Position numbers and translations under genes: made by a program. 64,000 bases of DNA from positions 1 to 64,000 of the IMG/VR virus record IMGVR_UViG_3300050120_000169. The stretch is one strand, 5' to 3'. The notes under the pieces were generated by a model. The model searched no databases. It saw only the letters and a program-made list of their open reading frames with translations, and had not been told where the DNA came from. The stretch is from a virus. Shown one piece after another: positions 1,567-63,320 of this stretch. Every line of letters begins with the position of its first letter. The stretch's first letter is position 1.

Positions 1567-2973
1567 ATGGCCCTAGGTTTTGGTCCAATTTCCGAACAAG
1601 CAGTCTCTGAGAATCAAACACCAGAGACGATTCTGCTCGCGTCGGGCACGACAACCAGTACAGCCACGGGGGCACTTGCCACCAGCATTACCGCCAAGGG
1701 GACTGGTTCTAGCACGTCTACGGCCCAAGCGGCGCTAGTTACGGGTATCAAGCTTGCGGTCCAGGTCGTAGAAAGTGCGCAATCAATTGCGGTACTCGCT
1801 ACCAGCATCACCATAGCCGGGTCGAACACGGGGTCGTCATCGGCACAAGCAGCGTTGTCGAATGCCCTGGTAGTGCAGGCGACTGAAACGGCGGCGGCTT
1901 TCGCATCCCTGACTACCGCGCTTTTGTTGGCGGCTGAAAGCGCAAGTACCAGTACTATCAGCGCCACGCTCAACACGCCCAATGATGTATTTGCGGCGGC
2001 GGCCACGACTACTAGTGTCGCTAGGGCAGCGTTGACGACCAATGTGAAATTGGCCTCGTTTGCCGAAAACATTAGCGGTACTAATGCGATGCTTACGACC
2101 GCGATTCATTTAGCGGCCAAGGGGCAGATTTTTTCAACGGGGACAGTCAACACCAGTTGGATTTTCGTAACGGCGGCGGAGAAATCCACGGCTGTAGCGA
2201 ACCTGATCACCGGTATTCTTGACGCCGCCCACGCGAACGAGACCAGTACAGCCTCCGCAGGATTGGCGAATACTTTCCTTGTTCACGCGAACGAGATAAG
2301 CACGGCTGTTGCTGCGTTGTCTAATGCAATGGCAGCGGCGGGTGGAGATTCTAGTACCGCCGAAGCTAGACTGGTTACGGCTATCGACTTAGTAGGGGAC
2401 GGTGTAAGTACCGTCACAGGTAGCTCCCACCTCACGACGGGCTTGCACCTCCTAACAGAGGGGCAGGAGTTAAGTGCAGGTGCAGCGGCGTTGCAGACCG
2501 GTATTGAGGTGGTGGCTTCCAATCGAAGCGCATCTGTAGCGACGGCACAACTACACACGTCGCTAACACTAGCGGCGATTGGCCGGGGAGGAAGCAGCAC
2601 TGAAGACCAGATGCAAACCAGTATCACTGTGCAGGCCCTGCTTTCGGCCTTGTCCTCGGCAGAAGCCGCGCTAACACGCCAGCCATTGTTGGCGGCTCAA
2701 GCAGGGGTATCGGCTGAGACCCTGGCGGCTCTGCGCGCTTCGATCACCTTCACCGCCCAGGCCCTGAATAGCAGCAATGCGAGTGCTGATGTACAGCAGA
2801 TTTTCTTTTACGGACTGGTGACGAGCGTGGCGCGGGCTACGTTTGGTATTGCGGTGACGCCCTACGAAAGTTTTCCGATTTATTCACAGAAAGAAACTTT
2901 TGGAGTAGTCTGTACACCAAGAGTAATACCCGTTACAGCAGACCCTGACGAAGTGCTTAACGTTACCCCATAG
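1567..2973 (+). CDS. Ala/Thr-rich repetitive putative virion protein
   Basis: Tandem degenerate repeats (STA.A.L.T.I.LA); structural neighbourhood. Confidence 0.55.
   Translation: MALGFGPISEQAVSENQTPETILLASGTTTSTATGALATSITAKGTGSSTSTAQAALVTGIKLAVQVVESAQSIAVLATSITIAGSNTGSSSAQAALSNALVVQATETAAAFASLTTALLLAAESASTSTISATLNTPNDVFAAAATTTSVARAALTTNVKLASFAENISGTNAMLTTAIHLAAKGQIFSTGTVNTSWIFVTAAEKSTAVANLITGILDAAHANETSTASAGLANTFLVHANEISTAVAALSNAMAAAGGDSSTAEARLVTAIDLVGDGVSTVTGSSHLTTGLHLLTEGQELSAGAAALQTGIEVVASNRSASVATAQLHTSLTLAAIGRGGSSTEDQMQTSITVQALLSALSSAEAALTRQPLLAAQAGVSAETLAALRASITFTAQALNSSNASADVQQIFFYGLVTSVARATFGIAVTPYESFPIYSQKETFGVVCTPRVIPVTADPDEVLNVTP
1777..1792. repeat. Dispersed palindrome copy 1
   Basis: GCGCAATCAATTGCGG, in CDS. 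Confidence 0.9.
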
Positions 2974-2985
2974 TGGAGCTAGACC

Positions 2986-3660
2986 ATGACCGCTGCAACG
3001 AACTACACCACGAACAAGTTTTTGGTAGATAACATCCTTCGTGGTCAAAGCAATACCCCGCCAACCTCGCTGTACTTCGGGTTGTTTGTGGCTGACCAAG
3101 GTTACTGGGTGGCGAGCCATGCCTATACCAGTGGGCAGTTTGTGCTCCCGGCTACCCCGAACGGCCACATTTACAAGTGCACGACCAGCGGCACGTCGGG
3201 TACGAACGCCGCAATTTTCAACACTGTGACCACGCCGGGTCAGACGGTTACGGATGGCACCGCCGTGTGGACGGAAGAAACGCTAGTGTTGGTGGCAGGG
3301 ACGTATTCCACCTACCCGCCAGAATGCACGTACACCAGCTATGCCCGCGAGTTGGTTACGTCCTCGCTGGCCGACTGGTCCGGTACTCAGTCGCAAGGCT
3401 CCACCACGGCTTCGACGGGTAGCAGCACGACGCTTAACAGCGTGGCGCTAAACACCTTCAATAACAACGCTGTGGCTTTCCCAGCACCGACCGGTAATCA
3501 GACGGGTGTTGTGGCTGGTATGTTTATCATCGATAATGCGACGGCAGGCACCAGCGGGAACATCCTGTTCTGGTCGATGCTGACCAACCCGAAGACGATC
3601 AACAACGGCGATGCGGCTCCGAACTTCCCGCAGTTTGCATTTGAACTTAGCTGGAGCTAG
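2986..3660 (+). CDS. Putative virion structural (fibre-associated) protein
   Basis: TNY..NK..D..LRGQ...P.SLY.GLF N-terminus, FPAPTG and LTNPKTINNGD C-terminus, with a W...HAY..GQ.V...NG.IYKCTTSG insert. Confidence 0.55.
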   Translation: MTAATNYTTNKFLVDNILRGQSNTPPTSLYFGLFVADQGYWVASHAYTSGQFVLPATPNGHIYKCTTSGTSGTNAAIFNTVTTPGQTVTDGTAVWTEETLVLVAGTYSTYPPECTYTSYARELVTSSLADWSGTQSQGSTTASTGSSTTLNSVALNTFNNNAVAFPAPTGNQTGVVAGMFIIDNATAGTSGNILFWSMLTNPKTINNGDAAPNFPQFAFELSWS

Positions 3661-3662
3661 GC

Positions 3663-4073: not shown

Positions 4074-4084
4074 CGGAGAAGAAC

Positions 4085-5303: not shown

Positions 5304-5307
5304 GATC

Positions 5308-6778: not shown

Positions 6779-6794
6779 CCGCAATTGATTGCGG
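6779..6794. repeat. Dispersed palindrome copy 2
   Basis: CCGCAATTGATTGCGG, intergenic before portal. Confidence 0.9.
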
Positions 6795-9297: not shown

Positions 9298-12281
9298 CCA
9301 TCCGAGAAGAAATGCAGAAGTGGCTGGACAGCCAGAAGCTTAAAGCCGAGCGCGATGCTTGGATGCGATCTAACACCCGGACTGATTCGGATTCAGAGGG
9401 GCGGTGGGTAACCATCAATAACACCCATGTATTGATTGGCAAGGACGGTCGAATTAAGAGTGGGGCTGAAGGGAAGTTCAACGGTCAAACCGAAGCGCAA
9501 ATGAGTAAAGGTGAAGAAGCCAAGGGCGGGGGTAAGGACGCCCCGACCGAACCCGTAACAGTTCAAAAGGCTGGTCCCGATACGGGGAATAAAAAGATTC
9601 CGGCACCTCCTGGCAAGGAGGAAGGCAAGTCAGGGGCGCAAGAAGAACCCCCGATTGCTGATGATCTGGGCGATCTGAATAAACAGTTGACGGAAGCTCA
9701 ATCTGATTTGGCGGTAAAAAGAAAGGAATTGCAAAAAGCCGGAGAGGGTGGAAAAGCAAAAACCACCGCCCAGGTGAGTGCCGTAGTTGAAGGCAACAAG
9801 GCGGTTGCGGCTGCTCTGGCGAAAGTAGATAGGATCAAGACACGACTGAAAACTGCTGCCCAGGTGTCGGAAGCCATGCCGACTGCCAATCCCCAAAACG
9901 AGATCAACAAACAGAAGCAGGAAGCGCAGGAAAGTGGGAAGCAGGAACAAGATTTCCAGACTCAGCAGGAAAAGGACAAGCGCGAACACGAGTTGAAAAA
10001 AGAGGAAATGAAGTCCGCTGCTGGCAAGGAGTCTGCTCCAGGCCCGACCACGACCACCGAAAAGACGACGGAGAAAGTGGCCGCGAATGGGGGGAAGACC
10101 GTTACCAAGGAAGCGAAGACTGAAACCGCTCCTGCCCCGGCTGAGAAGAAATCAGCGGAGAAACCTGCTGAAAAACCGGCGGAAAAGAAGGAAGAACCGG
10201 CTGCGGAAGATAAGGACCGACCAAAACGGTGGGACGGTACTCCGAATCCCCCCGGGGCATTGGAGACGGACCCGCCAGAAGAACGTGAAGCCTATTTAAA
10301 GAAGGAATTGGCTGAGACCGACGCGGAGTACAAGAAGTTGAAAGCGGCCTCGCCAGTCGATTGGAAAGCCATACACAAAACTAGTGATTACGAGCAAAGT
10401 TTAAAGGTGTCGTTAAAACGGCATCAGGACAAACAAGCGGAAGATGCGGCTGTGGCTAAAGACCCGTCAACCATTACTGCGGCAGAGAAATCGGCTGTCA
10501 AGGTGTATTCGTCTGCCAGCTATGAGTCCATAAACAAGCAATTGCGCTCTGGGAAAGAAGAAGCTGGGGGGATGTATAACCACGAGATAGGCGTACTCGA
10601 TGCTGCGTTGAATAAAAAGACGCTACCCACTGGCACGAAGTTGAAGCGCTATATTGACGCGGCTGGGATTAAGCAGCTATTCGGCGGCGAACCCAAGGTA
10701 GGCTCGGTGGGTACGGACAAGGCATTCATGTCCACTTCAGATTCTAAGACCTGGGAAAAGAATGAGCACCAGTTAGTGATGGAAACTCCGGCTGGACAGA
10801 AAGGGTTGAAGCTGGGCAACTTGAGTAAATACGAAGAAGAGGGCGAAGTCCTGCTGCCTCGCGGTACTTCGTTGAAAGTCACGAGCATCGGCACCAGCAA
10901 GGGTAAGAAATTGATTAAGTGTGAAATTGTGCAGAATGGAGACACCAAGGCAGATTCTGTGCCGGGAACCGCTCGTGACGCGCAAGAGCAATGCACCCGC
11001 CTTACGCCCATGGAGTATGTACAGGCAATGATGGCCCGCTGCCACGGCGCGGGGCTATCGGCTACCCGCATCATGATGGCGAAGAAGGCATTTCTGGAAA
11101 CACACGGGGAAACGCCGCAAACTATCGAGGAATACAGTGCGGGCATCGGCCAGCGATTCTTGCTGGCGCTGCTCAATGAATTCGGCATTCCTTCGATTGA
11201 AGAAACCGTTGACTGGTTTAACCGTACAGAAGCGCGGGCGGATGCTGGGGTCGTGCAATTGGCGGTGCCTGTTGGGGAGAAAATTGCCGCTGGTGTGTTG
11301 TTTATCACTGACAGTGGTTATATCCTCTTGGGCCAACGCGCAGAACCGGGGGAGTACCAGGGTCACTGGGGCATTTTTGGTGGACACGCGGAACCGGGCG
11401 AACCGCTTGAACTCACGGCTATGCGTGAAGTGCTGGAAGAAACAGGCCATGAAATTGAACAGAGTCAGATAGAGGGCGAGGCACCGCCGTTGCAATTGAT
11501 TGCGGAAACCGAACTAGACGGTACGAAGTTCTCGTATTTCATCAACGTGTGTAAGCCCTTCGAAGTGCGGTTAAACGACGAACACACGACCTATGGCTGG
11601 TTTGCTATGGGGGCGATGCCAGAGCCGTTGATTCCCGGTTTGCAGGAAGTAATCGACAGCGATTTGGTTAAAGGCCTGCGGCTGCGCAAGATGAATGAAA
11701 CGGATGTGGCGCGGGCGATGGCCTGGGGTGCGTTGCCCTCACCTATGAAGTTTGCGAATGTCAGCATGTACAAGATGCGGATTACTGGCACGGGCGCGGC
11801 ATTTCGTAGTGGTCAGCCAGAAATCAAGAATGCTGATGGCAAGGTTACGCAGGTAGCACTCAAAGACGAGCATTGTTTCCGCCCGCCCGAGCACTATCTT
11901 AATGAGGACTTTCTTGAGCGCTGCCAGGGCTTGAACCTGATTTTTGAACATCCGAAGAAACGAATTTTGAATTCCAAGGAGTTCAATGATCGGAAAGTTG
12001 GGAACATAGTACAGCCCTATATTTGGGGCGATGAGGTGTGGGGTATCGGCAAGGTGTACGACCAAGACACCATCGATATCCTAGATCATGAGGTGATGAG
12101 CACCAGCCCTGCTGTGCAATTTGGCGACAATGACGGGAATACGATCATCCCCCTCAGTGACGGGTCGCAAATGTTGATTGAGGGTAAGGCCCGCCTGCTC
12201 GACCACTTGGCTATCTGCGAGCAGGGGGTCTGGGATAAGGGCGGGCCGCCTACCGGAATTATTTCCGAAAGTGCGAAATAG
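9294..12281 (+). CDS. Multidomain head protein: ADP-ribosyltransferase + Nudix hydrolase + DUF2213-like prohead protease
   Basis: ART: YESINKQLR, LKR, FMSTS, EGEVLLPRGT; Nudix box GGHAEPGEPLELTAMREVLEETG; protease: RITGTG, RPPE.YL, EHP, STSPAV, LDHLAICEQGVWDKGG. Confidence 0.85.
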   Translation: MTIREEMQKWLDSQKLKAERDAWMRSNTRTDSDSEGRWVTINNTHVLIGKDGRIKSGAEGKFNGQTEAQMSKGEEAKGGGKDAPTEPVTVQKAGPDTGNKKIPAPPGKEEGKSGAQEEPPIADDLGDLNKQLTEAQSDLAVKRKELQKAGEGGKAKTTAQVSAVVEGNKAVAAALAKVDRIKTRLKTAAQVSEAMPTANPQNEINKQKQEAQESGKQEQDFQTQQEKDKREHELKKEEMKSAAGKESAPGPTTTTEKTTEKVAANGGKTVTKEAKTETAPAPAEKKSAEKPAEKPAEKKEEPAAEDKDRPKRWDGTPNPPGALETDPPEEREAYLKKELAETDAEYKKLKAASPVDWKAIHKTSDYEQSLKVSLKRHQDKQAEDAAVAKDPSTITAAEKSAVKVYSSASYESINKQLRSGKEEAGGMYNHEIGVLDAALNKKTLPTGTKLKRYIDAAGIKQLFGGEPKVGSVGTDKAFMSTSDSKTWEKNEHQLVMETPAGQKGLKLGNLSKYEEEGEVLLPRGTSLKVTSIGTSKGKKLIKCEIVQNGDTKADSVPGTARDAQEQCTRLTPMEYVQAMMARCHGAGLSATRIMMAKKAFLETHGETPQTIEEYSAGIGQRFLLALLNEFGIPSIEETVDWFNRTEARADAGVVQLAVPVGEKIAAGVLFITDSGYILLGQRAEPGEYQGHWGIFGGHAEPGEPLELTAMREVLEETGHEIEQSQIEGEAPPLQLIAETELDGTKFSYFINVCKPFEVRLNDEHTTYGWFAMGAMPEPLIPGLQEVIDSDLVKGLRLRKMNETDVARAMAWGALPSPMKFANVSMYKMRITGTGAAFRSGQPEIKNADGKVTQVALKDEHCFRPPEHYLNEDFLERCQGLNLIFEHPKKRILNSKEFNDRKVGNIVQPYIWGDEVWGIGKVYDQDTIDILDHEVMSTSPAVQFGDNDGNTIIPLSDGSQMLIEGKARLLDHLAICEQGVWDKGGPPTGIISESAK
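11490..11505. repeat. Dispersed palindrome copy 3
   Basis: TTGCAATTGATTGCGG, in CDS. Confidence 0.9.
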
Positions 12282-17018: not shown

Positions 17019-17034
17019 GCGCAATCAATTGCGG
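17019..17034. repeat. Dispersed palindrome copy 4
   Basis: GCGCAATCAATTGCGG, intergenic. Confidence 0.9.
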
Positions 17035-21404: not shown

Positions 21405-21420
21405 GCGCAATTGATTGCGG
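21405..21420. repeat. Dispersed palindrome copy 6
   Basis: GCGCAATTGATTGCGG, intergenic before tape measure. Confidence 0.9.
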
Positions 21421-25914: not shown

Positions 25915-25930
25915 CCGCAATTAATTGCGG
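25915..25930. repeat. Dispersed palindrome copy 7
   Basis: CCGCAATTAATTGCGG perfect palindrome, intergenic. Confidence 0.9.
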
Positions 25931-35118: not shown

Positions 35119-35134
35119 CCGCAATCAATTGCGG
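35119..35134. repeat. Dispersed palindrome copy 9
   Basis: CCGCAATCAATTGCGG, intergenic before endolysin. Confidence 0.9.
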
Positions 35135-38536: not shown

Positions 38537-38552
38537 CCGCAATTAATTGCGG
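38537..38552. repeat. Dispersed palindrome copy 10
   Basis: CCGCAATTAATTGCGG, 19 bp upstream of a -35 box. Confidence 0.9.
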
Positions 38553-45288: not shown

Positions 45289-45460
45289 ACAGGTAGCGTT
45301 ATCGTTATAGTTGGCGTCGGGTTAGGTTGGTTCGAATCCAACCCGTCCCGCCAAGTTTTCCGCAATTAACTGCGGAGGATTTCACGGGACGGTGGCCGAG
45401 TGGATACAGGCCCACATGCGAATGTGGAAAGACCCAGTTTATGATTTTCGTATCACCTGT
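45289..45460 (+). ncRNA. Circularly permuted tRNA-like RNA 1 (Y RNA/YrlA-like topology)
   Basis: T-arm 45326-45342, CCGTCCC-G-CCA 45343-45353, then GGGACGG 45386-45392 and D-arm; ends pair ACAGGT/ACCTGT. Confidence 0.65.
45360..45375. repeat. Dispersed palindrome copy 12 (variant)
   Basis: CCGCAATTAACTGCGG, in loop of tRNA-like RNA 1. Confidence 0.8.
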
Positions 45461-45462
45461 CA

Positions 45463-46443: not shown

Positions 46444-47280
46444 ATGGCATTGAATTTTGTTGGTGGTAAGCCGGTAAAAGTGGATAAGAAGATTATCCCT
46501 GTTGAAGAAATAAAAACCCCCGCTCCCCCTCCTTCGGGGGACTTCAAGTATTCGGATAAAGAACTGGCCGCGTTCCTGCTTGAGCAAGCACAGCAAATCA
46601 AGGCTGCGACTGCTGTACCGGGTTCGTTGTTGACCGCACAAGAACCGGAAAAGATACCGATCTACGTCAATGTTACGCATACAGTGGCCCCCGCCCCCTC
46701 GATTTTTGGATCATCGGGCATTCTAAACAACGAATTGTATGCCCAAGGCGTCACGCCACCCCCCGGGACGGTATTGGCCGATGGCACGACCACGTACTTG
46801 AGTAAGCTGCAAATCCCCGTTTCGGAATTAACGGTCGAGGACCAAGTAAAGCTTTCTCAGGACCAAGAACCGCAGTCAATTGCGGTGGAACAGGCGCACT
46901 CGGAAGTGCTGACGTTGGTAGACGAGTACACCGAACTGCAAGCGGAAATCGATGCCGTTGACATTTCTGCCCAGTTGAAAGCCCAGGAAACGATCAAAAA
47001 GCGGCTGGCGCAGATTGCCAAATCCGATAATTACCCGTCGAATAAACCCGTACAGCTATGCGGCACGCATGGCAACTACGTGGAGTTCAGCGCGGCGGCC
47101 AACTCGGTGAAGATCACCGACAAGGCGGGTATGGCGATGTATCTCGGTGCGCCAGTGTGGATTGAGCACACCGAAATGACGCTGGCCGAAGCCAAGAAGA
47201 TCCTCAGCGAAAACGAACTTGCCAAGTACACGTCTAACGTCCCGGGTAGTCGGACGCTCAAAACCGTTTATAAGGGGTAG
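46444..47280 (+). CDS. Hypothetical protein
   Basis: ORF with AGGAG RBS. Confidence 0.6.
   Translation: MALNFVGGKPVKVDKKIIPVEEIKTPAPPPSGDFKYSDKELAAFLLEQAQQIKAATAVPGSLLTAQEPEKIPIYVNVTHTVAPAPSIFGSSGILNNELYAQGVTPPPGTVLADGTTTYLSKLQIPVSELTVEDQVKLSQDQEPQSIAVEQAHSEVLTLVDEYTELQAEIDAVDISAQLKAQETIKKRLAQIAKSDNYPSNKPVQLCGTHGNYVEFSAAANSVKITDKAGMAMYLGAPVWIEHTEMTLAEAKKILSENELAKYTSNVPGSRTLKTVYKG
46870..46885. repeat. Dispersed palindrome copy 13 (variant)
   Basis: CCGCAGTCAATTGCGG, in CDS. Confidence 0.8.
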
Positions 47281-50046: not shown

Positions 50047-50171
50047 GTCAACGGGGCGAGCAATTAGGCAAAGGAAGTGTATCCTCCACACTTTCCTGCC
50101 AGCACCTTATCCCAGTGGGTGTTTGCCGAATAGATTGGGAATCGCTCGCCCCCCCCCCTAATGGAGTAAAA

Positions 50172-51515
50172 ATGACTTTACGCGTGCTGGACGTACAGCC
50201 GAAGTTCACGTCCGCTATGGCGGTTTATGACTTTAATTTGGCGATTGAGGCCAAGTTCAAATTCATGAGCAGATTTGGCGACCCGGTGAATATGTCATAC
50301 CGTGAAGGCAACTTGCTGTACGTGCCGCGTGAAGTAGTTCCTGTAGGCAAGGAAGATTACCGAGTTAGCAACAAGGTGTCCGCAATCAATTGCGCGATTG
50401 TGCCACGTAACGCCGAGCAGATACCCCTTTCGTCTAAATCATTAGACCTGCTTCGAAGCGGACAAAATCATGTTTTTAATGCGCCTACTGGATGGGGCAA
50501 GAGTGTAGTAGGTGGTTTTATAGCCGCAGCGTTAGGTCAGACGACAATTATTATTGTCAATAAGACAGACCTGATGGATAGCTGGTACGACGCCTTAGTA
50601 AATGTGCTAGGCATACCACCGAAACTGGTGGGCAAGGTGCAGCAGGACACCTGTAACTGGCAGGGAAAGCAGTTTGTGATCGCTATGGCGCATAGCGTGT
50701 GCAAGGAAGACAGATACCCCGATGAAATGTACCGGTATTTTGGGTTCATGATTGTCGATGAAGTAGATGCGATGGCCCCGGATTTCTTTGCCGGAATCTT
50801 CTCCAAATTCCCGGCGCGATACCGGTTAGGGTTCTCAGCCACCACTGACCGATCAGACGGTAAATGGAAGATCCTGACATACAATATCGGTCCCGTATTG
50901 GTGCAAGGTACGATTCTCCCGATGGTGCCCAAGATTCTGGTCAAGAAGACCAAGTGGCGCATCCCCCGGTGGAAGAAGTGGGTAGACGGGGAGGTAAAGG
51001 AAGAACCGATACCGCACAGCCCTGGACGCATGACGCTGGTAACTAAGGCCATGGCAAGCAGCTTGCCTCGTAATATGGAAATTGTTGAGTTCGTTAAGGC
51101 CGCGTACAAGGCTGACCGGACTACTTTGATACTGAGTGACTTAAGGGATGGACATCTTGACCCCCTGTTCTTGTTGTTGACCAAACAGGCAGGGATACCC
51201 GGCGATAAGATTGGTTATTACGTTGGGGGCATGACCAAGCAGGAATTAGAGGTAACGAAAAAGGCCAAGGTAGTGCTGGCGACTTACAAGATGGTAAATA
51301 GAGGCACGAACGTCCCACATTGGGACTCCCTGGTACTAGCTACACCTAAATGTGATGTACGTCAGGCAGTGGGCCGGGTTATTCGGTTTATGACTGATAA
51401 AAAACAACCCGTTGTATTGGATCTTGTGGATGTAGATCCGATTTTTCATACCTTTCATTTATCACGGGTGAAGTATTATTACAGTATTAAAGCAGAAATT
51501 GTGAGGATGGACTGA
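50172..51515 (+). CDS. Superfamily 2 DNA helicase (UvsW/ResIII-like)
   Basis: APTGWGKS, IVDEVD, GFSAT..RSDG, QAVGRVIR. Confidence 0.9.
   Translation: MTLRVLDVQPKFTSAMAVYDFNLAIEAKFKFMSRFGDPVNMSYREGNLLYVPREVVPVGKEDYRVSNKVSAINCAIVPRNAEQIPLSSKSLDLLRSGQNHVFNAPTGWGKSVVGGFIAAALGQTTIIIVNKTDLMDSWYDALVNVLGIPPKLVGKVQQDTCNWQGKQFVIAMAHSVCKEDRYPDEMYRYFGFMIVDEVDAMAPDFFAGIFSKFPARYRLGFSATTDRSDGKWKILTYNIGPVLVQGTILPMVPKILVKKTKWRIPRWKKWVDGEVKEEPIPHSPGRMTLVTKAMASSLPRNMEIVEFVKAAYKADRTTLILSDLRDGHLDPLFLLLTKQAGIPGDKIGYYVGGMTKQELEVTKKAKVVLATYKMVNRGTNVPHWDSLVLATPKCDVRQAVGRVIRFMTDKKQPVVLDLVDVDPIFHTFHLSRVKYYYSIKAEIVRMD
50380..50395. repeat. Dispersed palindrome copy 14
   Basis: CCGCAATCAATTGCGC, in CDS. Confidence 0.9.
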
Positions 51516-51517: not shown

Positions 51518-51949
51518 ATGACCGATGACGCATTCAACCGCTGGTACAAGAATCACAAGAAGGACTTTAACGACAAGCGGAAAAGTCGCTACCATACTGA
51601 TCCCGAGTACAAGAAGCGGGTGTTGGCGGCCAGTCGGCAAACCCGAGAAGATCGGCGTAAAGGTGTGGTGAAGTCGGCTACTAGTCAGAGTGGGGTGGTA
51701 AATCTGTCGGCCTTAGCCGAGGACCTAGAGATATCGGTTTGGACGCTTCGGAACTGGATGGCTAACGATTATTTTCCAAGACCCCAGATAGAGGGTGGGG
51801 GGCTATGGTTCACGCCCTGGCAAGTAGCACTCGTGGCACTGATTCAAGAATTCATGAAAGATAACAACGTTCGACGCCTAAGCGCCGCCCAGCGCCAAGA
51901 TTTACAAAAAGTCTTGACCTATATCCATGCCCATTGGGGTGATGCATGA
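51518..51949 (+). CDS. MerR-like HTH DNA-binding protein
   Basis: LSALAEDLEISVWTLRNW...YFPRP...G.WFT..QV. Confidence 0.65.
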   Translation: MTDDAFNRWYKNHKKDFNDKRKSRYHTDPEYKKRVLAASRQTREDRRKGVVKSATSQSGVVNLSALAEDLEISVWTLRNWMANDYFPRPQIEGGGLWFTPWQVALVALIQEFMKDNNVRRLSAAQRQDLQKVLTYIHAHWGDA

Positions 51950-56000: not shown

Positions 56001-56503
56001 TTGTTGTTGGCATTGATCCGAGCACCTGGGTAGGCCTAGCCAGAAGTGACGGCCATGGCGACATCATGGGCAAGTGTGTACACGTAGATCTGGTTGGCTG
56101 GGAACGCGTGCAATTGATTGCGGAAAACGTGTACAGAACCCTGGAGGTTTGGGAGCCAGAGTTGGCGGTAATAGAAAATTATGCCCTAGGGATGAAAAAA
56201 AGCCCCGATACCCTAGTGACACTGATCGCAATCGGTACTATGATTAGATCCTCGTTGTACAACTTGAACATCCCCTGGATTGAAATTAGACCCAGTACGC
56301 TCAAGAAATGGACAACCGGTAAAGGCAATGCCAAGAAGCCACAGATGGCGGAAGCAGTGAAGAATCGGTGGGGTTACACTTCCCCCTCTGATGACATTGT
56401 AGATGCAGCGGCCCTCGCAGAAATGGGCCACATTCTTGTAGCAAATGGGTTAAAAAATCTTCCAGACGGAGTAAAACATGGACTCAGCAACTTTCAAGCG
56501 TGA
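55997..56503 (+). CDS. RuvC-like Holliday junction resolvase
   Basis: VGIDPS, AVIE.Y, P.TLKK..TGKGNA.K, DD.VDA. Confidence 0.85.
   Translation: MIVVGIDPSTWVGLARSDGHGDIMGKCVHVDLVGWERVQLIAENVYRTLEVWEPELAVIENYALGMKKSPDTLVTLIAIGTMIRSSLYNLNIPWIEIRPSTLKKWTTGKGNAKKPQMAEAVKNRWGYTSPSDDIVDAAALAEMGHILVANGLKNLPDGVKHGLSNFQA
56108..56123. repeat. Dispersed palindrome copy 15
   Basis: GTGCAATTGATTGCGG, in CDS. Confidence 0.9.
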
Positions 56504-57200: not shown

Positions 57201-57215
57201 TGCAATTGATTGCGG
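57200..57215. repeat. Dispersed palindrome copy 16
   Basis: GTGCAATTGATTGCGG, 7 bp upstream of a -35 box. Confidence 0.9.
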
Positions 57216-57222: not shown

Positions 57223-57250
57223 TTGACAAATGGGGCGCACGCGTTATAAT
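57223..57250 (+). promoter_or_regulatory. Sigma70-type promoter with palindrome copy just upstream of -35
   Basis: Consensus TTGACA-16 bp-TATAAT. Confidence 0.8.
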
Positions 57251-57293
57251 CAATTCATAAGTTTTAATGAAACATACACAGACGGAGTATCAC

Positions 57294-58109
57294 ATGACCG
57301 ACGAAGTAATGACAGACGCAGAAGAACAGCAACCCCTCGAAAAAGTTGACGTAGGGGTGAAATCCAAAGGCAAGGCCACGGGTAACACCATCGCAGACGT
57401 GGCGGCCAAGGTCGAAGGACTGACCAAAACCAAAGCCCGCAATCGTGCCGACGAACTGGCTGAAAACATCGAAGCCAATTACTTCGAACTGGGCGGCGTG
57501 CTGAAGGTGATCATGGATAACGGGTGGTTCGAAGGCTATGACAGCTTCCAAACCTTCGTGTTTGAACGCTATGGTTTCCAGAAGCGCAAGGCCGAGTACC
57601 TGATGGGTCTGTATGACCATCTGGTGACCAAGCAAATCCCGTGGGAAAAAGTCGCACATCTGGGTTGGACTAAGGTTGCAATCCTGGCCTCTGTACTGAC
57701 GCTCGAAAACCTTGACGAATGGGTGGCACGAGCCGAAGCATCGACGGTGCTGCAATTGACGGCTATGATCAAGGCCAAACCAGAAAGCGGCGGCGAGTCC
57801 ACCACCAGTGACGAGGTGGTTACGCTCAAGTACAAGTTTCACAAGGATCAGGCTGAAACGATCCAAACCGGGCTTGCCAAGGCCAAGGGCGATTTCCAGA
57901 CCGAGTATGATACGGTCGCAATGGAAAACGTGTTTGCTGGCTATCTGGCAGGGCAATTCGGCGCGGCACCTTCAGCAGGGGGCGACCTCAAGGCGATCAT
58001 GAAGGACGCTGGGTGGGAAGCCGTCTTGGGAGCTTTCGATGAACTGTTCCCCGAAATCAATCTGGCAGTAACGCTACCCGGTACGGACGCCGAGCAAGCA
58101 GCGGCGTAA
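57294..58109 (+). CDS. Putative HTH DNA-binding protein (DUF3102/partition-protein-like)
   Basis: YFELGGVL..I....GYDSFQTFV.ERYG..KRKA.YLM..Y, LGWTK; ATG 57294 after GGAG. Confidence 0.55.
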   Translation: MTDEVMTDAEEQQPLEKVDVGVKSKGKATGNTIADVAAKVEGLTKTKARNRADELAENIEANYFELGGVLKVIMDNGWFEGYDSFQTFVFERYGFQKRKAEYLMGLYDHLVTKQIPWEKVAHLGWTKVAILASVLTLENLDEWVARAEASTVLQLTAMIKAKPESGGESTTSDEVVTLKYKFHKDQAETIQTGLAKAKGDFQTEYDTVAMENVFAGYLAGQFGAAPSAGGDLKAIMKDAGWEAVLGAFDELFPEINLAVTLPGTDAEQAAA

Positions 58110-58118: not shown

Positions 58119-58191
58119 AGCACTGCTTCATTCCCCATGGGGCAGTGCTTTTCTAGCGGGAAGGCTTTTTAACCCGGCCTTCCCCTTTTTT
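58119..58191 (+). terminator. Tandem Rho-independent terminators
   Basis: AGCACTGC...GCAGTGCT-TTT and GGGAAGGC...GCCTTCCC-CTTTTTT. Confidence 0.7.
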
Positions 58192-59850: not shown

Positions 59851-60539
59851 AAATCGAACAAATTGATGTGAGTTTGGCGTCGGCTCAGGCATCGTCAAAT
59901 TTCTTTAACGCGTTGTCGAAAGTGTACGATCTGTCGAATATGGAGGTGCTCGATGCCTTCGCCCGTAATGGGCAACTGACGGTTAGCCATTATGCCCACT
60001 GGGTAAAGGCCGTAGACTGTTGGGAGTTTTGCGATGAGCATCGGGAGGCGCTGCAATCAATTGCGGGTGTGCGTGAGGTGGTAATCGGCTGTTCGTATGA
60101 CTTGTCCGATGCCGAACGTATCATGGAAGTGAGCAAGTACGACATGGTGGTAATTGATGCCCCACAAAGCTTCCATAACAGTAATCACGGTGGTCCGATG
60201 TGTGGGCATTTGGATTTTCTGACGGACTACACCGAACACCTGTTGAAAGACCGGGCACTGGTTATGTTGTACGTCAACAAGGTGCCTTACGATCCGGCGA
60301 AGGAAGGACACCACGGGCTAGACTCGTACGAGAACTTCGATTTTGATATGTGGATGAAGCGCCGATTAGAGTTTTACGGCTGGGTGGACATCAATGAGCA
60401 GGTTGCCTTACAGGCCTACGAGGATGTTTTTCACCGGATGGGCCGCAAGATCAAGTCGGTTTTCATGCACCCCCTGCCGGATAATGTTCCCGGCAAACCG
60501 CCTGCATTCTATATGGTGCTCGAAACGGTCAAGGTATAG
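59847..60539 (+). CDS. SAM-dependent methyltransferase-like protein
   Basis: VLDAFARNG, WE, YDMVVIDAP Rossmann motifs. Confidence 0.6.
   Translation: MKIEQIDVSLASAQASSNFFNALSKVYDLSNMEVLDAFARNGQLTVSHYAHWVKAVDCWEFCDEHREALQSIAGVREVVIGCSYDLSDAERIMEVSKYDMVVIDAPQSFHNSNHGGPMCGHLDFLTDYTEHLLKDRALVMLYVNKVPYDPAKEGHHGLDSYENFDFDMWMKRRLEFYGWVDINEQVALQAYEDVFHRMGRKIKSVFMHPLPDNVPGKPPAFYMVLETVKV
60051..60066. repeat. Dispersed palindrome copy 17
   Basis: CTGCAATCAATTGCGG, in CDS. Confidence 0.9.
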
Positions 60540-60541
60540 AC

Positions 60542-61972
60542 ATGAAAATTCTTGTGGATCCGGTCTACACCCAGCGTGTTCGCATTTGCTCCGGCAGCTA
60601 TCTTGCGTGGCAGATAGTCGAGGAAATGAGCAAGCGCCGCGAGGATGTATTTTTCTATATGATCCTGCCCGAAGAAAAAATGGAGCAGGCGGACTGGGAT
60701 TGGATCAACAGTAGGCCCTACCGCGACCGAGTTACGCTGCTAGACATGTACACCAATCCGGTGGATCGGTTGAGTGAGTTGTACATGCTGCGCGATGGCT
60801 TGCATAAAATCTTGCACCCGCTTAACCGTAATACCTGGGATATCGATATTGTGGTCAGTGGCCGGATCCCGGTGTTGAAACATATGATGATCCACAGTAG
60901 TAGACCGGGCGGTAAGCTACGTAGTGCCAGGGCGTTCTTTGGCACTGACAACATGCCCTGCCTGCCTGGACGGGACACAGTTCCGTGGCATGAGCACGCG
61001 TACGCCGACACGATTATGTCCTATGCTATGTCGGACGGAATCTTGATCAGTGGTATGTGGATGAAGAAGCTGATCGCGCACACGGCCCGTGAAGTATTGT
61101 CACCAGCTTGGCAGAAACGTGCGTTGGCAAACGTGTACGGCGCGAACCTGATCAAGCTGGAGCGGCTCAAGATGGGACGAGATTATGTTCCCGGTAAGGA
61201 TTTCAATATCGGCTTTACCGGGCGCATTACCGGCACTCGGAATTTTGAGGGGGTGGCTGAGTTATTCCGTAAGCAATTCAGTTTCCCGCTTGGGCCAAAC
61301 AAGGCCTGCCTTAAATTCAGTATCAGTACGAACAGTCAGTGTGTTGGGGCGGCTGACGCGGGGGAGATCGATTTTATCGACTATCAGATGAATGACCGGG
61401 CGGCCTTTTACACATTTTTGGAGACCCAGCATCTGGTGGTCAACTTGAGTTCTACCGAGGACTTTTCGATTACCACGCACGAGACGTTGCGGCATGGCGT
61501 GCCGATGATTGTGTATGATCGGCCCTGGACTGAATTTTTAGGCCCAGACTACCCGTTCCGGGTAAAGGGTGAAACCGAGGCCTATGCATTGATTAACGCG
61601 TTTGTGGCCGATTATCCGAAGATGTACAAGCTATTCTCGGATTGGGAAAGCACTTGGTGGAAGAACTATGTGGAAAGTCCTGAAACCAACGTGACTACCA
61701 GCGAAAAGTTGATTCAACTGATCAATGATTTCGAAATCAAGCGGGCCGAGGCATTCCTTAAGCAGGGGGCTATGGCACGGGAGCGGCTGCAATCAATTGC
61801 GGAAACCGAACTGGATTTGACCGAGATAGCCTTTGAAAGCATCCCCAAAGGCGACCGGGTAACATCGCTGGCGCTGGGGCGTGTACCTAATACCTTGGTG
61901 TGGAAAGTCATTGCATACGAACTTGGTTATACTGATACAGCTAAAACCGGCATTATGGTAAGGAAGACCTAA
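60542..61972 (+). CDS. GT-B fold glycosyltransferase
   Basis: MKILVD N-terminus, IGFTGR, S.TEDFSITTHETL.HGVP.I (E-x7-E motif). Confidence 0.75.
   Translation: MKILVDPVYTQRVRICSGSYLAWQIVEEMSKRREDVFFYMILPEEKMEQADWDWINSRPYRDRVTLLDMYTNPVDRLSELYMLRDGLHKILHPLNRNTWDIDIVVSGRIPVLKHMMIHSSRPGGKLRSARAFFGTDNMPCLPGRDTVPWHEHAYADTIMSYAMSDGILISGMWMKKLIAHTAREVLSPAWQKRALANVYGANLIKLERLKMGRDYVPGKDFNIGFTGRITGTRNFEGVAELFRKQFSFPLGPNKACLKFSISTNSQCVGAADAGEIDFIDYQMNDRAAFYTFLETQHLVVNLSSTEDFSITTHETLRHGVPMIVYDRPWTEFLGPDYPFRVKGETEAYALINAFVADYPKMYKLFSDWESTWWKNYVESPETNVTTSEKLIQLINDFEIKRAEAFLKQGAMARERLQSIAETELDLTEIAFESIPKGDRVTSLALGRVPNTLVWKVIAYELGYTDTAKTGIMVRKT
61787..61802. repeat. Dispersed palindrome copy 18
   Basis: CTGCAATCAATTGCGG, in CDS. 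Confidence 0.9.
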
Positions 61973-62824
61973 ATGGATGCGCTGGAAAAGACCAAAGCCC
62001 TAGGCCGTGTTTTTCTGCCGGTGGAAGCGCTTGAGCCAAATAAAGATAACCCAAACACGATGTCGGACGCAGAATTTAATATGTTGTCCGATAACATCGA
62101 GAAGACTGGGATTACCGATCCAATTTTTGTTCGGCTTATTTCGCCAGGACAGTACCGTATTGTCGGTGGACACCACCGCTGGGAAGTGGCAAAGCTCCTG
62201 GGGTTTGTTGAAGTCCCATGCACTGTGATCGATGATCCCGAGTTCGATGATGATGCAGAAAAGTATCAAATGGTGCGTATGAACGTGATTCGAGGTCGCA
62301 TGACCCCGGATAAGTTCCTTAAGTTGTACAACAGTCTCAATAAGAAGCATGGGGCTGAAATCATGGCCGAGGCCTTCGGTTTTGTTGACGAAGAACAGTT
62401 CAAGAAGCTCACCAAGCAGATGAGCGCTACCTTACCACCGGAACTCCAAGGGGATTTTGAGAAGGCGGCCAAAGAAATCAAGACTATCGACGGCCTCTCT
62501 AAACTACTTAACGGGATGTTCAGTAAATATGGTAATACTCTCGACTATAACTTTATGTTGCTAGATTATGGCGGGAGAGATAGTGTGTGGATTCGTATGG
62601 CAGCTTCTGAAAAGAAAAAGCTGGTGTCCTTAGGGTATAAATGTGTAGATGGGTCGGTTAGTTTGGATTCTGTGTTGAATGGGTTGATTGACTTTTCTTT
62701 ATCAGACAAAGGTAGCCAGATATTGGCTCAATTGATAAAAGAAGGGAAGAAAGTTACACTTTCGGATGGGATTGAATTACCCACTCTGGAGAATTTAGAT
62801 GAGCACCCTAAAGGGCACTATTAG
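61973..62824 (+). CDS. ParB/Srx N-terminal domain protein
   Basis: L.PN..NPN.M...EF..L...I...G..DPI.V, YRIVGGHHRW..AK.LG..EVPC. Confidence 0.85.
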   Translation: MDALEKTKALGRVFLPVEALEPNKDNPNTMSDAEFNMLSDNIEKTGITDPIFVRLISPGQYRIVGGHHRWEVAKLLGFVEVPCTVIDDPEFDDDAEKYQMVRMNVIRGRMTPDKFLKLYNSLNKKHGAEIMAEAFGFVDEEQFKKLTKQMSATLPPELQGDFEKAAKEIKTIDGLSKLLNGMFSKYGNTLDYNFMLLDYGGRDSVWIRMAASEKKKLVSLGYKCVDGSVSLDSVLNGLIDFSLSDKGSQILAQLIKEGKKVTLSDGIELPTLENLDEHPKGHY

Positions 62825-63320
62825 AAAAGCTGGGAAGAAAGTAAGGGATTGGTTAGGTGATATTAAAGCTGTGCAATTGATTGCGGAAGGGTGCGGTGAA
62901 TGTATGCCCTATACTGGTCGAGTAGATAAAAACGGGTATGGTAGATGCCCCTGGGAAGGGGTTGGAAATACTTTAACGCATCGGTTAGCCTATGCAGTGG
63001 CTCATGACTTATCACTAACAGATATCGAGGGTGTAGTGGTTCGACACACTTGTGATAACCCTCCGTGTTGTAACCCTAATCATTTAGTTGTCGGGACACA
63101 CGGGGATAATTGCAAAGATAAAATTATTCGCGGAAGACTTCCGGTTGGAGAAGACGCAGGTCCGTCTAAATTGACCGAAGCCCAAGTTAGAGAAATTAAA
63201 ACTAGATTATTGGGCGGAGAACGTGGCAAAGTGTTAGCAAAAGAGTTTGGCGTCCACGTGATGACGATTAGTGATATCAAGCGTGGGGCCACATGGAGGC
63301 ATGTAAATGTCCAAGTTTAA
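62799..63320 (+). mobile_element. HNH homing endonuclease with C-terminal HTH
   Basis: GYG, THRLAY, VVRHTCDNPPCCNPNHL..GT..DN..D...RGR. Confidence 0.9.
62871..62886. repeat. Dispersed palindrome copy 19
   Basis: GTGCAATTGATTGCGG, inside HNH gene. Confidence 0.9.

What the first reader, a model, noticed from the sequence alone, without database searches (positions are those of the whole stretch)
1777..62886. Genome-wide lattice of a 16-bp quasi-palindrome (19 copies, inside and between genes)
Seen: consensus nnGCAATYRATTGCGG at 1777, 6779, 11490, 17019, 19689, 21405, 25915, 32166, 35119, 38537, 41791, 45360, 46870, 50380, 56108, 57200, 60051, 61787 and 62871. Sixteen match the core GCAATYRATTGC exactly; about 0.015 are expected in 64 kb at equal base frequencies. 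Eight are intergenic and 11 lie in unrelated CDSs, read as QLIA/QSIA/QLTA or, in another frame, SAINCA, so the constraint is on DNA rather than protein. Gaps never exceed about 6.3 kb. Of 12 asymmetric copies, 10 keep the GCGG end downstream, often extended GCGGAAA(CC). One copy lies inside an HNH gene and one inside an ncRNA loop. Established analogies: RK2 KorB operators, mycobacteriophage L5 stoperators, parS/Noc/SlmA sites. Inference: binding or loading sites for a dimeric phage protein that organises, silences, partitions, packages or marks the whole genome. The count is by eye and may be incomplete.
Basis: partly seen in the sequence, partly recalled or inferred. Interest (0 to 1): 0.9.

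Follow-up and report, generated by a model that had tools for sequence, protein, structure and literature searches.

The report
Phage-wide palindrome lattice, ParB-like binder
A 12-16-bp palindrome is written every 2-3 kb through this ~100-kb peat phage and its relatives, including cultured Stenotrophomonas, Rhodobacter, Rhizobium and Vibrio phages. It most likely marks docking sites for a phage protein whose DNA-binding part looks like that of ParB/KorB, a system that no paper I could search describes.

Summary
GCAATYRATTGC occurs 16 times exactly and 3 times with one mismatch in the window, against 0.04 expected. It occurs about 30 times in the ~100-kb genome.

It is not peculiar to this phage. 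The same core occurs 20-46 times in related metagenomic phages and in cultured phage DLP5. Diverged versions occur in RcZahn, SIO-2, RHph_TM16 and RcTiptonus.

Several features point to double-stranded DNA sites for a phage-encoded homodimer:
- The flanks change symmetrically between phages but independently within a phage.
- Copies inside genes sit at orthologous positions in proteins only ~50% identical (arms 100% identical, flanks 42%).
- Spacing is more even than random (CV 0.5-0.6 against 0.96).

The best candidate binder is the product of 57294-58109:
- It is the only DNA-binding candidate found in every motif-bearing genome I examined.
- Its fold resembles the ParB/KorB DNA-binding domain, without the CTPase domain.
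- It models as a homodimer.
- A site lies 7-10 nt upstream of the -35 of its own promoter in nine genomes.

No ParA is present, so classical partition is unlikely. Binding itself was not tested and the function remains inferred. This scan found the same system earlier on other DNA (e1-5318750, e1-5982126).

The parts
1779..1790 (.). site, exact core (centre CA), inside ORF 1567-2973
6781..6792 (.). site, exact (TG), intergenic before the portal gene 6857-8485
   Evidence: same place in G001 (18742) and G009 (34207)
11492..11503 (.). site, exact (TG), inside the NUDIX part of the 995-aa ART-NUDIX ORF 9294-12281, read LQLIA
   Evidence: orthologous copies at G001 24034 and G009 37185
17021..17032 (.). 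site, exact (CA), 12 nt before the start codon of the major capsid gene 17045-18073
   Evidence: same place in G001 (29268) and G009 (42401)
19691..19702 (.). site with one mismatch (GCAATTGACTGC), inside the sheath-like ORF 18831-20210
21407..21418 (.). site, exact (TG), 12 nt before the start of the SLT/tape-measure-like ORF 21431-23410
   Evidence: same place in G009 (46459) and G008 (7078)
25917..25928 (.). site, exact (TA, perfect 16-bp palindrome with its flanks), 10 nt before the start at 25939; GCGGAGG serves as the Shine-Dalgarno sequence
32168..32179 (.). site, exact (TG), 104 nt into ORF 32064-34427 as called (the start is uncertain)
35121..35132 (.). site, exact (CA), 10 nt before the start at 35143
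   Evidence: G009 56521 lies before the orthologue
38539..38550 (.). site, exact (TA), 21 nt upstream of the -35 of promoter 38572 (TTGACA-16-TATACT)
41793..41804 (.). site, exact (TG), inside the DnaD-like ORF 40930-41961, read VQLIA
   Evidence: orthologous copies in G009, G010 and G013, with the centre flipped in two of them
45362..45373 (.). site with one mismatch (GCAATTAACTGC), in the non-coding stretch that the scan's notes read as a tRNA-like RNA
   Evidence: G009 99359 has a copy beside the same downstream sequence
46872..46883 (.). site with one mismatch (GCAGTCAATTGC), inside ORF 46444-47280
   Evidence: copies about 140 nt further along the orthologous ORF in G009 and G013
50382..50393 (.). 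site, exact (CA), inside the SF2 helicase ORF 50115-51515 at about aa 89
   Evidence: orthologous copies at G009 69047 and G013 7114
56110..56121 (.). site, exact (TG), inside the RuvC-like ORF 55982-56503 at about aa 43, read VQLIA
   Evidence: orthologous copies in G009, G010, G011 and DLP5
57202..57213 (.). site, exact (TG), 9 nt upstream of the -35 of the candidate binder's own promoter (site centre near -50)
   Evidence: the same arrangement occurs in G009, G010, G012, G013, DLP5, RcZahn, TM16 and RcTiptonus
57223..57250 (+). consensus sigma70-type promoter TTGACA-16-TATAAT (12/12)
57294..58109 (+). candidate site-binding protein, 271 aa from the conserved Met (the ORF as listed starts at 57267). 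It has a central ParB/KorB-like DNA-binding domain, no ParB_N domain, and models as a homodimer.
58147..58165 (+). terminator-like hairpin followed by a T-run, closing the one-gene unit
60053..60064 (.). site, exact (CA), inside ORF 59847-60539
61789..61800 (.). site, exact (CA), inside the glycosyltransferase-like ORF 60542-61972, read LQSIA
   Evidence: orthologous copy at G009 82637
61973..62824 (+). ParB_N-domain protein (GGHHRW box), a rival or partner candidate
62873..62884 (.). site, exact (TG), inside the HNH-like ORF 62799-63320
   Evidence: orthologous copy at G009 83713
51518..51949 (+). MerR/CI-like HTH regulator, a weaker rival candidate

Best explanation
The palindromes are double-stranded DNA docking sites for a homodimer of the phage protein encoded at 57294-58109. 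The consensus here is (t)cCGCAAT-YR-ATTGCGg(a). This protein carries a ParB/KorB-type helix-turn-helix DNA-binding domain but no ParB N-terminal CTPase domain. Host RNA polymerase makes it early from a consensus sigma70 promoter that itself has a site centred near -50, so it probably regulates its own synthesis (inferred). It then occupies about 30 evenly spaced sites across the ~100-kb genome. A quarter of these lie 7-12 nt upstream of the -35 of strong early promoters, over the UP-element region. Others lie between a stop codon and the next Shine-Dalgarno sequence, and the rest lie inside genes. The most likely role is a KorB-like global regulator and organiser of the phage chromosome: it would damp or insulate early promoters and keep every 2-3-kb segment of the genome bound, for example in the episomal carrier state known for relative DLP5. 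It is unlikely to be a classical ParABS centromere. Shown here: the sites, their conservation, symmetry and spacing, and their co-occurrence with the protein family. Inferred: the binding, the autoregulation and the function.
For: Enrichment:
- 16 exact copies against 0.04 in shuffles.
- Synonymous-codon shuffles give 0.6 in-ORF copies against 10 observed.
- 16 of 26 exact copies lie outside ORFs, although ORFs cover 94% of the genome.

Clade-wide conservation of the core:
- G009 42 copies, G010 40, G012 27, G013 20, sister contigs 35.
- DLP5 27 exact plus 9 one-mismatch.
- Diverged but significant versions: RcZahn 19 against 0.9 expected, SIO-2 26 against 0.55, TM16 TGCAA-N4-TTGCA 17 against 0.2, RcTiptonus GCAATCGATTGC 50 against 0.6.

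Dimer signature rather than hairpin:
- The consensus at +-7 and +-8 switches symmetrically between phages (C..G here, T..A in G009-G013 and DLP5).
- Within a genome, left and right flank deviations are no more complementary than chance (z -0.8 to -2.8).
- Conserved in-CDS copies fold no better than shuffles (-3.4 and -3.6 kcal/mol).
- Both centre orientations are equally common on the single coding strand.

Selection acts on the DNA:
- Orthologous in-CDS copies sit in RuvC, helicase, DnaD-like, NUDIX and GT genes.
- Their arms are 100% identical and their flanks 42% identical over 26 pairs.
- Centre flips turn Leu into Ser, QLIA to QSIA.

Even spacing in four full genomes: CV 0.48-0.59 against 0.96, P <= 0.0004.

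The binder:
- The family of 57294-58109 is present in every motif-bearing genome examined.
- It is absent from three complete relatives sharing the capsid gene that lack the motif.
- It is the best-conserved non-enzyme of the module (51-63% identity).
- VIA matches: ParB DBD-parS Z 8.3, Spo0J 7.6, KorB DBD-operator 6.8 (106 of 114 residues), KorB 6.5. The next unrelated rows score <= 4.8. Foldseek gives the same cluster.
- Homodimer model: score 0.74 against a best control of 0.00. That mark was reached by 20 of 30 proteins solved as pairs and 1 of 23 solved as single chains; runs agree in at least 76% of contacts and the partner's pLDDT is at least 71.
- A site lies 7-10 nt upstream of the -35 of this gene's promoter in nine genomes.
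- 25 of 33 promoter-proximal sites lie 7-12 nt from the -35.
Against: No binding data exist, and co-occurrence is not proof.
- The fold match is moderate: Z is about 8 or less for a helical domain, the Raf1 alpha domain scores as high (8.8), Foldseek E is about 0.5, and neither Pfam nor PDB sequence searches hit.
- The model's C-terminal half has low confidence.
- A second protein, 61973-62824 (ParB_N), matches ParB/Noc/KorB over about 190 columns at E 3e-8. It co-occurs with the motif everywhere except SIO-2 and the partial contig G011, so it could be the binder or an obligatory partner.
- A symmetric homodimer does not explain why the centre is almost always TG or CA in this group (about 190 of 197).
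- G011 has the protein but no site at its promoter, and only 6-11 sites in 52 kb.
- Only 7 of about 20 strong promoters here carry a site, so promoter control cannot be the whole function.
- Nothing explains the even spacing mechanistically for a protein that lacks the clamp-forming CTPase domain.
Confidence: 0.55

Rival explanations
1. The sites are bound or loaded by the ParB_N-domain protein 61973-62824, alone or as a 'split ParB' with 57294-58109 supplying the DNA-binding domain. It would form NTP-dependent clamps that slide from evenly spaced loading sites. These clamps might serve the adjacent glycosyltransferase/deacetylase DNA-modification cluster, or silencing.
For: - ParB_N Pfam hit at 7e-12 and PHROG 26387 at 4e-85.
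- Foldseek matches ParB, Noc and KorB at E 3e-8 over about 190 columns, beyond the N-terminal domain alone.
- Homologues are present in G009, G010, G012, G013, DLP5, RcZahn, TM16 and RcTiptonus.
- KorB clamps slide about 1.5 kb (PMC11790492), comparable with half the 2-3-kb spacing here.
- DLP5 DNA is reported to be heavily modified (PMC5834331).
Against: - SIO-2 lacks it by tblastn at E < 0.01, yet has 26 significant sites.
- The box reads GGHHRW rather than GERRxRA.
- The model beyond residue 100 has low confidence.
- No site lies at its own promoter.
- No interaction between it and 57294-58109 was tested.
Confidence: 0.15
2. The sites are entry points for a DNA transaction rather than regulation. 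They could be strand nicks, cleavage or recombination hotspots for the phage's HNH, RuvC-like, Cas4-like or RecA machinery, or marks left unmodified or specially modified.
For: - Even, genome-wide spacing regardless of coding.
- The lattice travels with the recombination/replication module, not the structural module.
- The core contains ATTG, a RuvC-preferred tetranucleotide (my own knowledge, not tested here).
- DLP5 DNA is modified (PMC5834331).
Against: - Known phage nick sites, such as those of T5 and tf (my own knowledge), are asymmetric and strand-specific. These sites are symmetric and occur in both centre orientations.
- The fixed placement 7-12 nt upstream of -35 boxes, and at the candidate gene's own promoter, is what an operator would show.
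- The HNH gene is not conserved across the clade.
Confidence: 0.08
3. The sites are operators of the small MerR/CI-like HTH regulator 51518-51949.
For: It has HTH hits. It is conserved in G009-G013 and DLP5 and sits inside the same module.
Against: - It is only 27-48% identical across phages that share an invariant 12-bp core.
- No homologue was found in RcZahn, TM16 or RcTiptonus, and SIO-2 gave only a 27-residue match.
- No site lies at its own gene.
Confidence: 0.04
4. The element works as an RNA or single-stranded DNA hairpin, for example as a processing site, a translational operator next to the Shine-Dalgarno sequence, or a 3'-end protector.
For: - About 10 copies lie between a stop codon and the next start, with GCGGAG acting as the Shine-Dalgarno sequence.
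- Copies with full flanks fold at -9.3 kcal/mol (z = -4.2).
- All genes lie on one strand.
Against: - There is no pairwise covariation within genomes.
- Conserved in-CDS copies fold no better than shuffles.
- The loop would be UUGA or UCAA with equal frequency.
- The sequence, not the pairing, is conserved.
- In sister phages the flank is GCGCA, which is not a Shine-Dalgarno sequence.
- The even spacing and the in-CDS conservation would have no explanation.
Confidence: 0.04
5. The sites are bound by a host protein, or are relics of a selfish miniature palindromic element that spreads within phage genomes.
For: The short palindromes are in high copy number. No direct evidence for either reading was found.
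Against: - The hosts span Stenotrophomonas, Vibrio, Rhodobacter and Rhizobium, while the motif varies with the phage lineage.
- Copies sit at orthologous positions, which speaks against recent spread.
- Nothing is conserved beyond 16-18 bp.
- Over-dispersed spacing is not expected of insertions.
Confidence: 0.04

Closest known systems
KorB and its OB operators on IncP plasmid RK2 (PMC11790492; PDB 1r71, 8qa8)
   Same: - A palindromic operator is repeated over the whole replicon, some copies next to promoters and some far from any promoter or inside genes.
- The DNA-binding domain has the same fold class (VIA Z 6.8 and 6.5).
- The protein is dimeric.
- The expected role is global regulation.
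   Different: - KorB has an N-terminal CTPase clamp domain, a ParA partner (IncC) and the co-repressor KorA.
- The candidate here has no ParB_N domain, no ParA is encoded, and no KorA-like partner was sought.
- Site density is about twice as high (1 per 2.2-3.2 kb).
- Sites are evenly spaced and conserved inside coding sequences.
- Promoter-proximal sites centre near -50, not near -40 as I recall for KorB class I sites (from memory, not checked).
Mycobacteriophage L5 gp71 stoperators (my own knowledge)
   Same: - Dozens of copies of one short site lie throughout a temperate phage genome.
- Many lie in tiny intergenic gaps.
- They act as operators at promoters and as roadblocks elsewhere.
   Different: - Stoperators are asymmetric 13-mers that work in one orientation and are bound by the immunity repressor.
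- Here the core is symmetric, both centre orientations are equally frequent, many copies lie inside genes at conserved positions, and the candidate is ParB-like.
Noc-NBS, SlmA-SBS and MatP-matS chromosome-marking systems (my own knowledge; Noc structures 7ol9, 7ng0 appear)
   Same: Tens of dispersed 12-14-bp palindromes are bound by a dimer and mark a whole DNA domain rather than single promoters. Noc belongs to the ParB family.
   Different: Those are cellular systems tied to division-site selection. Noc needs its CTPase domain and a membrane-targeting helix. None of them is known in phages or has sites positioned at promoters.
Dispersed operators and centromeres of plasmid prophages: P1 C1 operators and the four N15 SopB sites (my own knowledge)
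   Same: These are large phages that can persist as plasmids, as relative DLP5 does (PMC5834331), with one protein's sites scattered over the genome.
   Different: P1 C1 sites are asymmetric 17-mers. The N15 sites number four and work with SopA (a ParA), and no ParA is present here. Lysogeny of this particular phage is not shown.

Membership tests
ParB/KorB superfamily (protein 57294-58109) | Central HTH DNA-binding domain with the ParB/KorB fold | tested here: inconclusive
   VIA: 6s6h Z 8.3 (116 aligned, rmsd 5.7), 1vz0 Z 7.6 (105, rmsd 3.5), 1r71 Z 6.8 (106 of 114, rmsd 3.8), 8qa8 Z 6.5. The next unrelated rows score <= 4.8, but the Raf1 alpha domain scores 8.8. Foldseek gives the same cluster at E about 0.5. 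There is no Pfam or PDB sequence hit. The Atlas gives leads to DUF3102 and ParB-HTH clusters only.
ParB/KorB superfamily (protein 57294-58109) | N-terminal ParB_N CTPase domain with a GxxRxxA box | tested here: not met
   No ParB_N hit in six family members or in ten long-form relatives. Residues 1-38 are variable and modelled as disordered.
ParB/KorB superfamily (protein 57294-58109) | Homodimer | tested here: met
   By model only: ipSAE 0.74 against a best control of 0.00. The mark was reached by 20 of 30 proteins solved as pairs and 1 of 23 solved as single chains. Runs agree in at least 76% of contacts and the partner's pLDDT is at least 71.
ParB/KorB superfamily (protein 57294-58109) | Specific binding to a 13-16-bp palindrome on its own replicon | not testable with these tools
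   Only co-occurrence and a site at the gene's own promoter in nine genomes.
Type I ParABS partition system | A ParA (Walker/deviant Walker ATPase) encoded with ParB | tested here: not met
   PF13614 and PF01656 gave no match in G000, G007, G009, G010 or DLP5, while both rang in all 14 control genomes.
Type I ParABS partition system | parS sites few and clustered near the par locus or origin | tested here: not met
   There are 26-46 sites per genome, over-dispersed (CV 0.5-0.6).
KorB-OB type global regulon | The same palindromic operator at promoter-proximal and promoter-distal places across the replicon | tested here: met
   Seven sites lie 9-49 bp upstream of -35 boxes and the rest are distal or in CDS. 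The modal site-to-(-35) spacing is 7-12 nt in 25 of 33 cases across genomes.
KorB-OB type global regulon | CTP-dependent sliding clamp plus a clamp-locking partner (KorA) | not tested
   The candidate lacks the clamp domain. No KorA-like partner was sought.
L5-type stoperators | Asymmetric site that works in one orientation relative to transcription | tested here: not met
   The core is symmetric. Centres are TG 11, CA 12, TA 3 on a single coding strand. The flank polarity is seen only in this genome.
Structured RNA / hairpin element | Base pairing kept by covariation, and stable folding of the copies | tested here: not met
   There is no excess complementarity at flank positions within genomes. 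Conserved in-CDS copies fold at -3.4 and -3.6 kcal/mol, z -0.1 and -0.7. No Rfam match.

The most novel reading that the evidence does not exclude
An undescribed and very widespread class of phage 'genome-marking' systems. An N-domain-less ParB/KorB-type DNA-binding protein (about 2,500 clusters at 50% identity in metagenomes) would work together with 25-50 evenly spaced cognate palindromes, which are maintained even at the cost of amino-acid changes in unrelated genes. The pair would coat or organise the whole phage chromosome. Possible roles are global silencing, ParA-independent episome maintenance, telling self from host DNA, or guiding the linked ParB_N/glycosyltransferase DNA-modification machinery. 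The mechanism would be distinct from both ParABS and KorAB.
Probability: 0.3. Interest if true: 0.85.

Novelty: new variant of a known kind. Interest (0 to 1): 0.72.

Why it matters
If the reading holds, many large phages of Proteobacteria carry a conserved protein-site system that constrains their whole genome architecture, including gene spacing, promoter design and even protein sequences such as Q(L/S)IA in RuvC and helicase. These include cultured and tractable phages: DLP5, DLP3, Summit, RcZahn, RcTiptonus, RHph_TM16 and SIO-2/VHS1-like phages. No paper I could search mentions the system.

It would extend the ParB/KorB world to proteins without the CTPase clamp domain. It could explain how plasmid-like prophages such as DLP5 persist without a ParA. 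It also gives a directly testable case of genome-wide regulation or organisation in a virus, with about 36 predicted ChIP peaks in DLP5. The ready-made series of natural specificity variants (centre TG/CA, CG, CATA; flank T..A against C..G) is useful for studying how ParB-type DNA recognition evolves.

Tried and rejected
- Megablast of 20 kb against cultured phages found nothing. Relatives were reached only through proteins.
- ARAGORN and Rfam found nothing in the window.
The 14-mer scan mostly returned chance single hits, but it revealed same-sample contigs.
- More distant capsid relatives showed no equivalent repeated 10-mer.
- The hairpin or stem model was rejected.
- A promoter role for the late-region copies was rejected. 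Only 10-15 nt separate the site from the start codon, and there is no -10 element.
- Classical partition was rejected because no ParA is present.
- A Pfam scan and a PDB sequence search of the candidate family gave nothing. The N-terminal extensions of long forms have no Pfam domain.
- The GenBank label 'ribonuclease E/G family' on some homologues is not supported by the fold.
- No RNA holder is listed among public runs. The holders are peat and watershed DNA kept as contigs, so no reads were laid.
- Literature searches for the motif strings found only primers. The DLP5, DLP3 and RcZahn papers do not mention a repeat.
- Aeromonas phage HJ05, a distant homologue, had no copy with one mismatch or fewer and was not explored further.
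- The model of the ParB_N protein was too poor beyond residue 100 to decide whether it has an HTH.

Full report
OBSERVATION. The 12-mer GCAATYRATTGC occurs 16 times exactly in the window. Dinucleotide-preserving shuffles give a mean of 0.04 and at most 1. All genes lie on the + strand. The window is the first 64 kb of an 80,087-bp IMG/VR record carrying 22 exact and 3 one-mismatch copies. That record is itself incomplete. A 20.3-kb contig from the same metagenome overlaps its end by a 127-nt assembly joint, carries the terminase, polymerase-like and PPDK-like genes, and adds five more copies with the same flanks. The genome is therefore about 100 kb with about 30 sites. Shuffling synonymous codons within every ORF yields 0.6 in-ORF copies (max 3) against 10 observed. 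Sixteen of 26 exact copies lie outside ORFs, although ORFs cover 94% of the sequence.

ANATOMY. The consensus here is (t)cC-GCAAT-YR-ATTGC-GG(a). The centre is CA in 12 copies, TG in 11 and TA in 3, and never CG. The copies fall into three contexts:
- About ten sit between a stop codon and the next start, 10-15 nt before the start codon. There GCGGAG doubles as the Shine-Dalgarno sequence. Examples are the capsid gene at 17045 and the tape-measure-like gene at 21431.
- Seven sit 9-49 bp upstream of the -35 of near-consensus sigma70 promoters (TTGACA-16-TATAnT). The genome has about 20 such promoters, all on the + strand and all between 35.8 and 94.5 kb.
- About ten lie deep inside unrelated genes.

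Relatives have symmetric flanks. I therefore attribute the polarity to Shine-Dalgarno use and the purine-rich coding strand, not to the system.

COMPARATIVE EVIDENCE. Relatives found through the capsid protein split into two groups. A sister phage from the same sample has the motif, while 50-kb relatives at 53% capsid identity or less do not. Searching with the candidate proteins found ~100-kb phages from other metagenomes with 40-42 exact copies, and partial contigs with 20-27.

Cultured relatives were found through the same protein family:
- Stenotrophomonas phage DLP5 has 27 exact plus 9 one-mismatch copies.
- Rhodobacter phage RcZahn has 19 against 0.9 expected.
- Vibrio phage SIO-2 has 26 against 0.55 expected, as G(C/A)AATYRATT(G/T)C.
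- Rhizobium phage RHph_TM16 has 17 exact copies of TGCAA-N4-TTGCA, mostly with CATA in the middle.
- Rhodobacter phage RcTiptonus has 50 copies of (G/A)CAAT-CG-ATTG(C/T).

The lattice travels with the replication/recombination module, not the structural module. G010-G013 share only that module with this phage, yet they have the sites.

DNA DUPLEX SITE FOR A DIMER, NOT A HAIRPIN.
- Between phages the consensus at +-7 and +-8 changes symmetrically: CC..GG here, GC..GC in the sister, (C/T)T..A(G/A) in G009, G010, G012 and DLP5, with the outermost position looser in G011 and G013.
- Within a genome the deviations on the two sides are no more complementary than shuffles (z between -0.8 and -2.8 at offsets 1-3). 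That is what independent half-sites of a co-evolving dimer predict, and not what a stem predicts.
- Conserved in-CDS copies fold no better than shuffled sequence.
- Both centre orientations are equally frequent on the one transcribed strand, so an RNA reading would have two different loops.

IN-CDS COPIES ARE ANCIENT. Copies occupy orthologous positions in proteins only about 45-60% identical:
- RuvC, at about aa 43, in five genomes.
- SF2 helicase, at about aa 89, in three genomes.
- DnaD-like protein, in four genomes.
- NUDIX, in three genomes.
- Glycosyltransferase and HNH, in two genomes each.

Over 26 orthologous pairs the 10 arm bases are 100% identical, while 58 flanking bases are 42% identical. 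Where the reading frame could be fixed (RuvC, DnaD-like, NUDIX, glycosyltransferase), the copies read (L/V)Q(L/S)IA. A centre flip changes Leu to Ser while preserving the DNA motif.

SPACING. In four full-length genomes the circular gaps have CV 0.48-0.59 against 0.96 for random placement (P <= 0.0004). The largest gaps are 5-8 kb against 10-13 kb expected. In two genomes no gap is under about 700 bp.

WHO BINDS. Three DNA-binding candidates lie in the module.

(a) 57294-58109.
- The listed ORF starts at 57267, but Met10 is invariant and the promoter's -10 ends at 57250.
- Homologues occur in every motif-bearing genome examined, from 63% down to 27% identity.
- None occurs in three complete capsid relatives that lack the motif.
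- Its central 130 residues are modelled with confidence. The best structural matches are ParB DBD-parS (Z 8.3), Spo0J (7.6), KorB DBD-operator (6.8, 106 of 114 residues) and KorB (6.5), together with the Raf1 alpha domain (8.8). Unrelated rows start at 4.8.
- It has no ParB_N domain and no Pfam hit.
- It models as a symmetric homodimer, with score 0.74 against a best control of 0.00. That mark was reached by 20 of 30 proteins solved as pairs and 1 of 23 solved as single chains; runs agree in at least 76% of contacts and the partner's pLDDT is at least 71.
- It forms a one-gene unit between a 12/12 consensus promoter and a terminator.
- A site lies 7-10 nt upstream of that promoter's -35 here and in G009, G010, G012, G013 (one mismatch), DLP5, RcZahn, TM16 and RcTiptonus, but not in G011.
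- The family is large: 2,557 clusters at E <= 1e-3.

(b) The ParB_N protein 61973-62824.
- It matches ParB, Noc and KorB at E 3e-8 over about 190 columns.
- It co-occurs with the motif everywhere except SIO-2 and the partial contig G011.
- It remains a serious rival or partner.

(c) The MerR/CI-like HTH protein 51518-51949.
- It is poorly conserved.
- No homologue was found in RcZahn, TM16 or RcTiptonus, and SIO-2 gave only a 27-residue match.

WHAT IT DOES (INFERRED). Across genomes, 25 of 33 promoter-proximal sites end 7-12 nt before the -35. This puts the site centre near -50, over the UP-element region. The geometry fits modulation of strong early promoters, including autoregulation of the binder gene. 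Promoter control cannot be everything, however, because most sites are far from promoters, are evenly spaced and are conserved inside genes.

No ParA-type ATPase is encoded in this phage, G009, G010 or DLP5. The system is therefore not a classical ParABS centromere, although DLP5 persists as a plasmid prophage with heavily modified DNA (PMC5834331).

The closest analogue is KorB with its dispersed OB operators. KorB reaches promoters up to 1.5 kb away as a CTP clamp (PMC11790492). The candidate here lacks the clamp domain, which makes the mechanism of genome-wide coverage an open question.

UNEXPLAINED. The near-exclusive TG/CA centre in this group contrasts with CG in RcTiptonus and CATA in TM16. 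The even spacing and the role of the ParB_N protein are also unexplained. One lead: residues 137-139 of the candidate, just after the invariant HLGWTK, read VAI here and LKD in all five aligned relatives whose +-7 flank is T..A.

PRIOR NOTES AND LITERATURE. After reaching this reading, I found that the scan had reported the same kind of lattice with a ParB-DBD-like protein in two other phage genomes (e1-5318750, e1-5982126). A first-stage note on this genome had proposed the 57294 unit as the binder (e1-6097088). These are AI notes, not independent evidence. No searchable paper contains the motif strings in this context. The DLP5, DLP3 and RcZahn papers do not mention it.

VERDICT. Binding and function remain untested.

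Noticed in passing
window 63874-64000 region and record end; contig G007 (L162/L163): The 80-kb record rated '100% complete' is not the whole genome. A 20,307-bp contig from the same metagenome shares a 127-nt assembly joint with its end. It carries terminase-like, 1078-aa polymerase-like and PPDK-like genes syntenic with DLP5, giving about 100 kb.
   Followed up: partly
window 35802-57250 (and on to 94.5 kb of the joined genome): About 20 near-consensus sigma70 promoters (TTGACA-16-TATAnT) lie on the + strand and none on the - strand. None lies in the 0-35 kb structural module, so how the late genes are transcribed is unclear.
   Followed up: partly
window 9294-12281: A 995-aa head-module protein combines an ADP-ribosyltransferase exoenzyme-type domain (PF03496, 7.6e-20) with a NUDIX domain (5.6e-13). 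It may be an ejected host-modifying protein.
   Followed up: no
window 59176-62824: The cluster of PIG-L deacetylase, unknown protein, glycosyltransferase-like protein and ParB_N protein is conserved in DLP5 and RcZahn; TM16 keeps the glycosyltransferase-like and ParB_N genes. DLP5 DNA resisted 32 of 36 restriction enzymes (PMC5834331).
   Followed up: partly
window 45289-46186: The stretch that other first-stage notes read as permuted tRNA-like RNAs gave no ARAGORN or Rfam match. Its palindrome copy and the adjacent GGGACGGTGGCC sequence recur in G009.
   Followed up: partly
window 57294-58109 homologues in GenBank (e.g. MN988459 EVB27_031): Some records annotate this family as 'putative ribonuclease E/G family protein'. 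The fold and the absence of any Pfam hit do not support that name. The label probably comes from the low-complexity N-terminal extension.
   Followed up: partly
window 55323-56000: A phage-type Dam N6-adenine methyltransferase (PF05869, 1e-12) is present here and partly in G011, but not in the other relatives. It overlaps the RuvC-like ORF start by 19 nt.
   Followed up: no
L012, L015, L017, L036 (distant capsid relatives, ~40% GC): The 10-mer AAAATCTTGC recurs 4-5 times per ~20 kb in several of these loci. It may be another lineage-specific repeated element.
   Followed up: no
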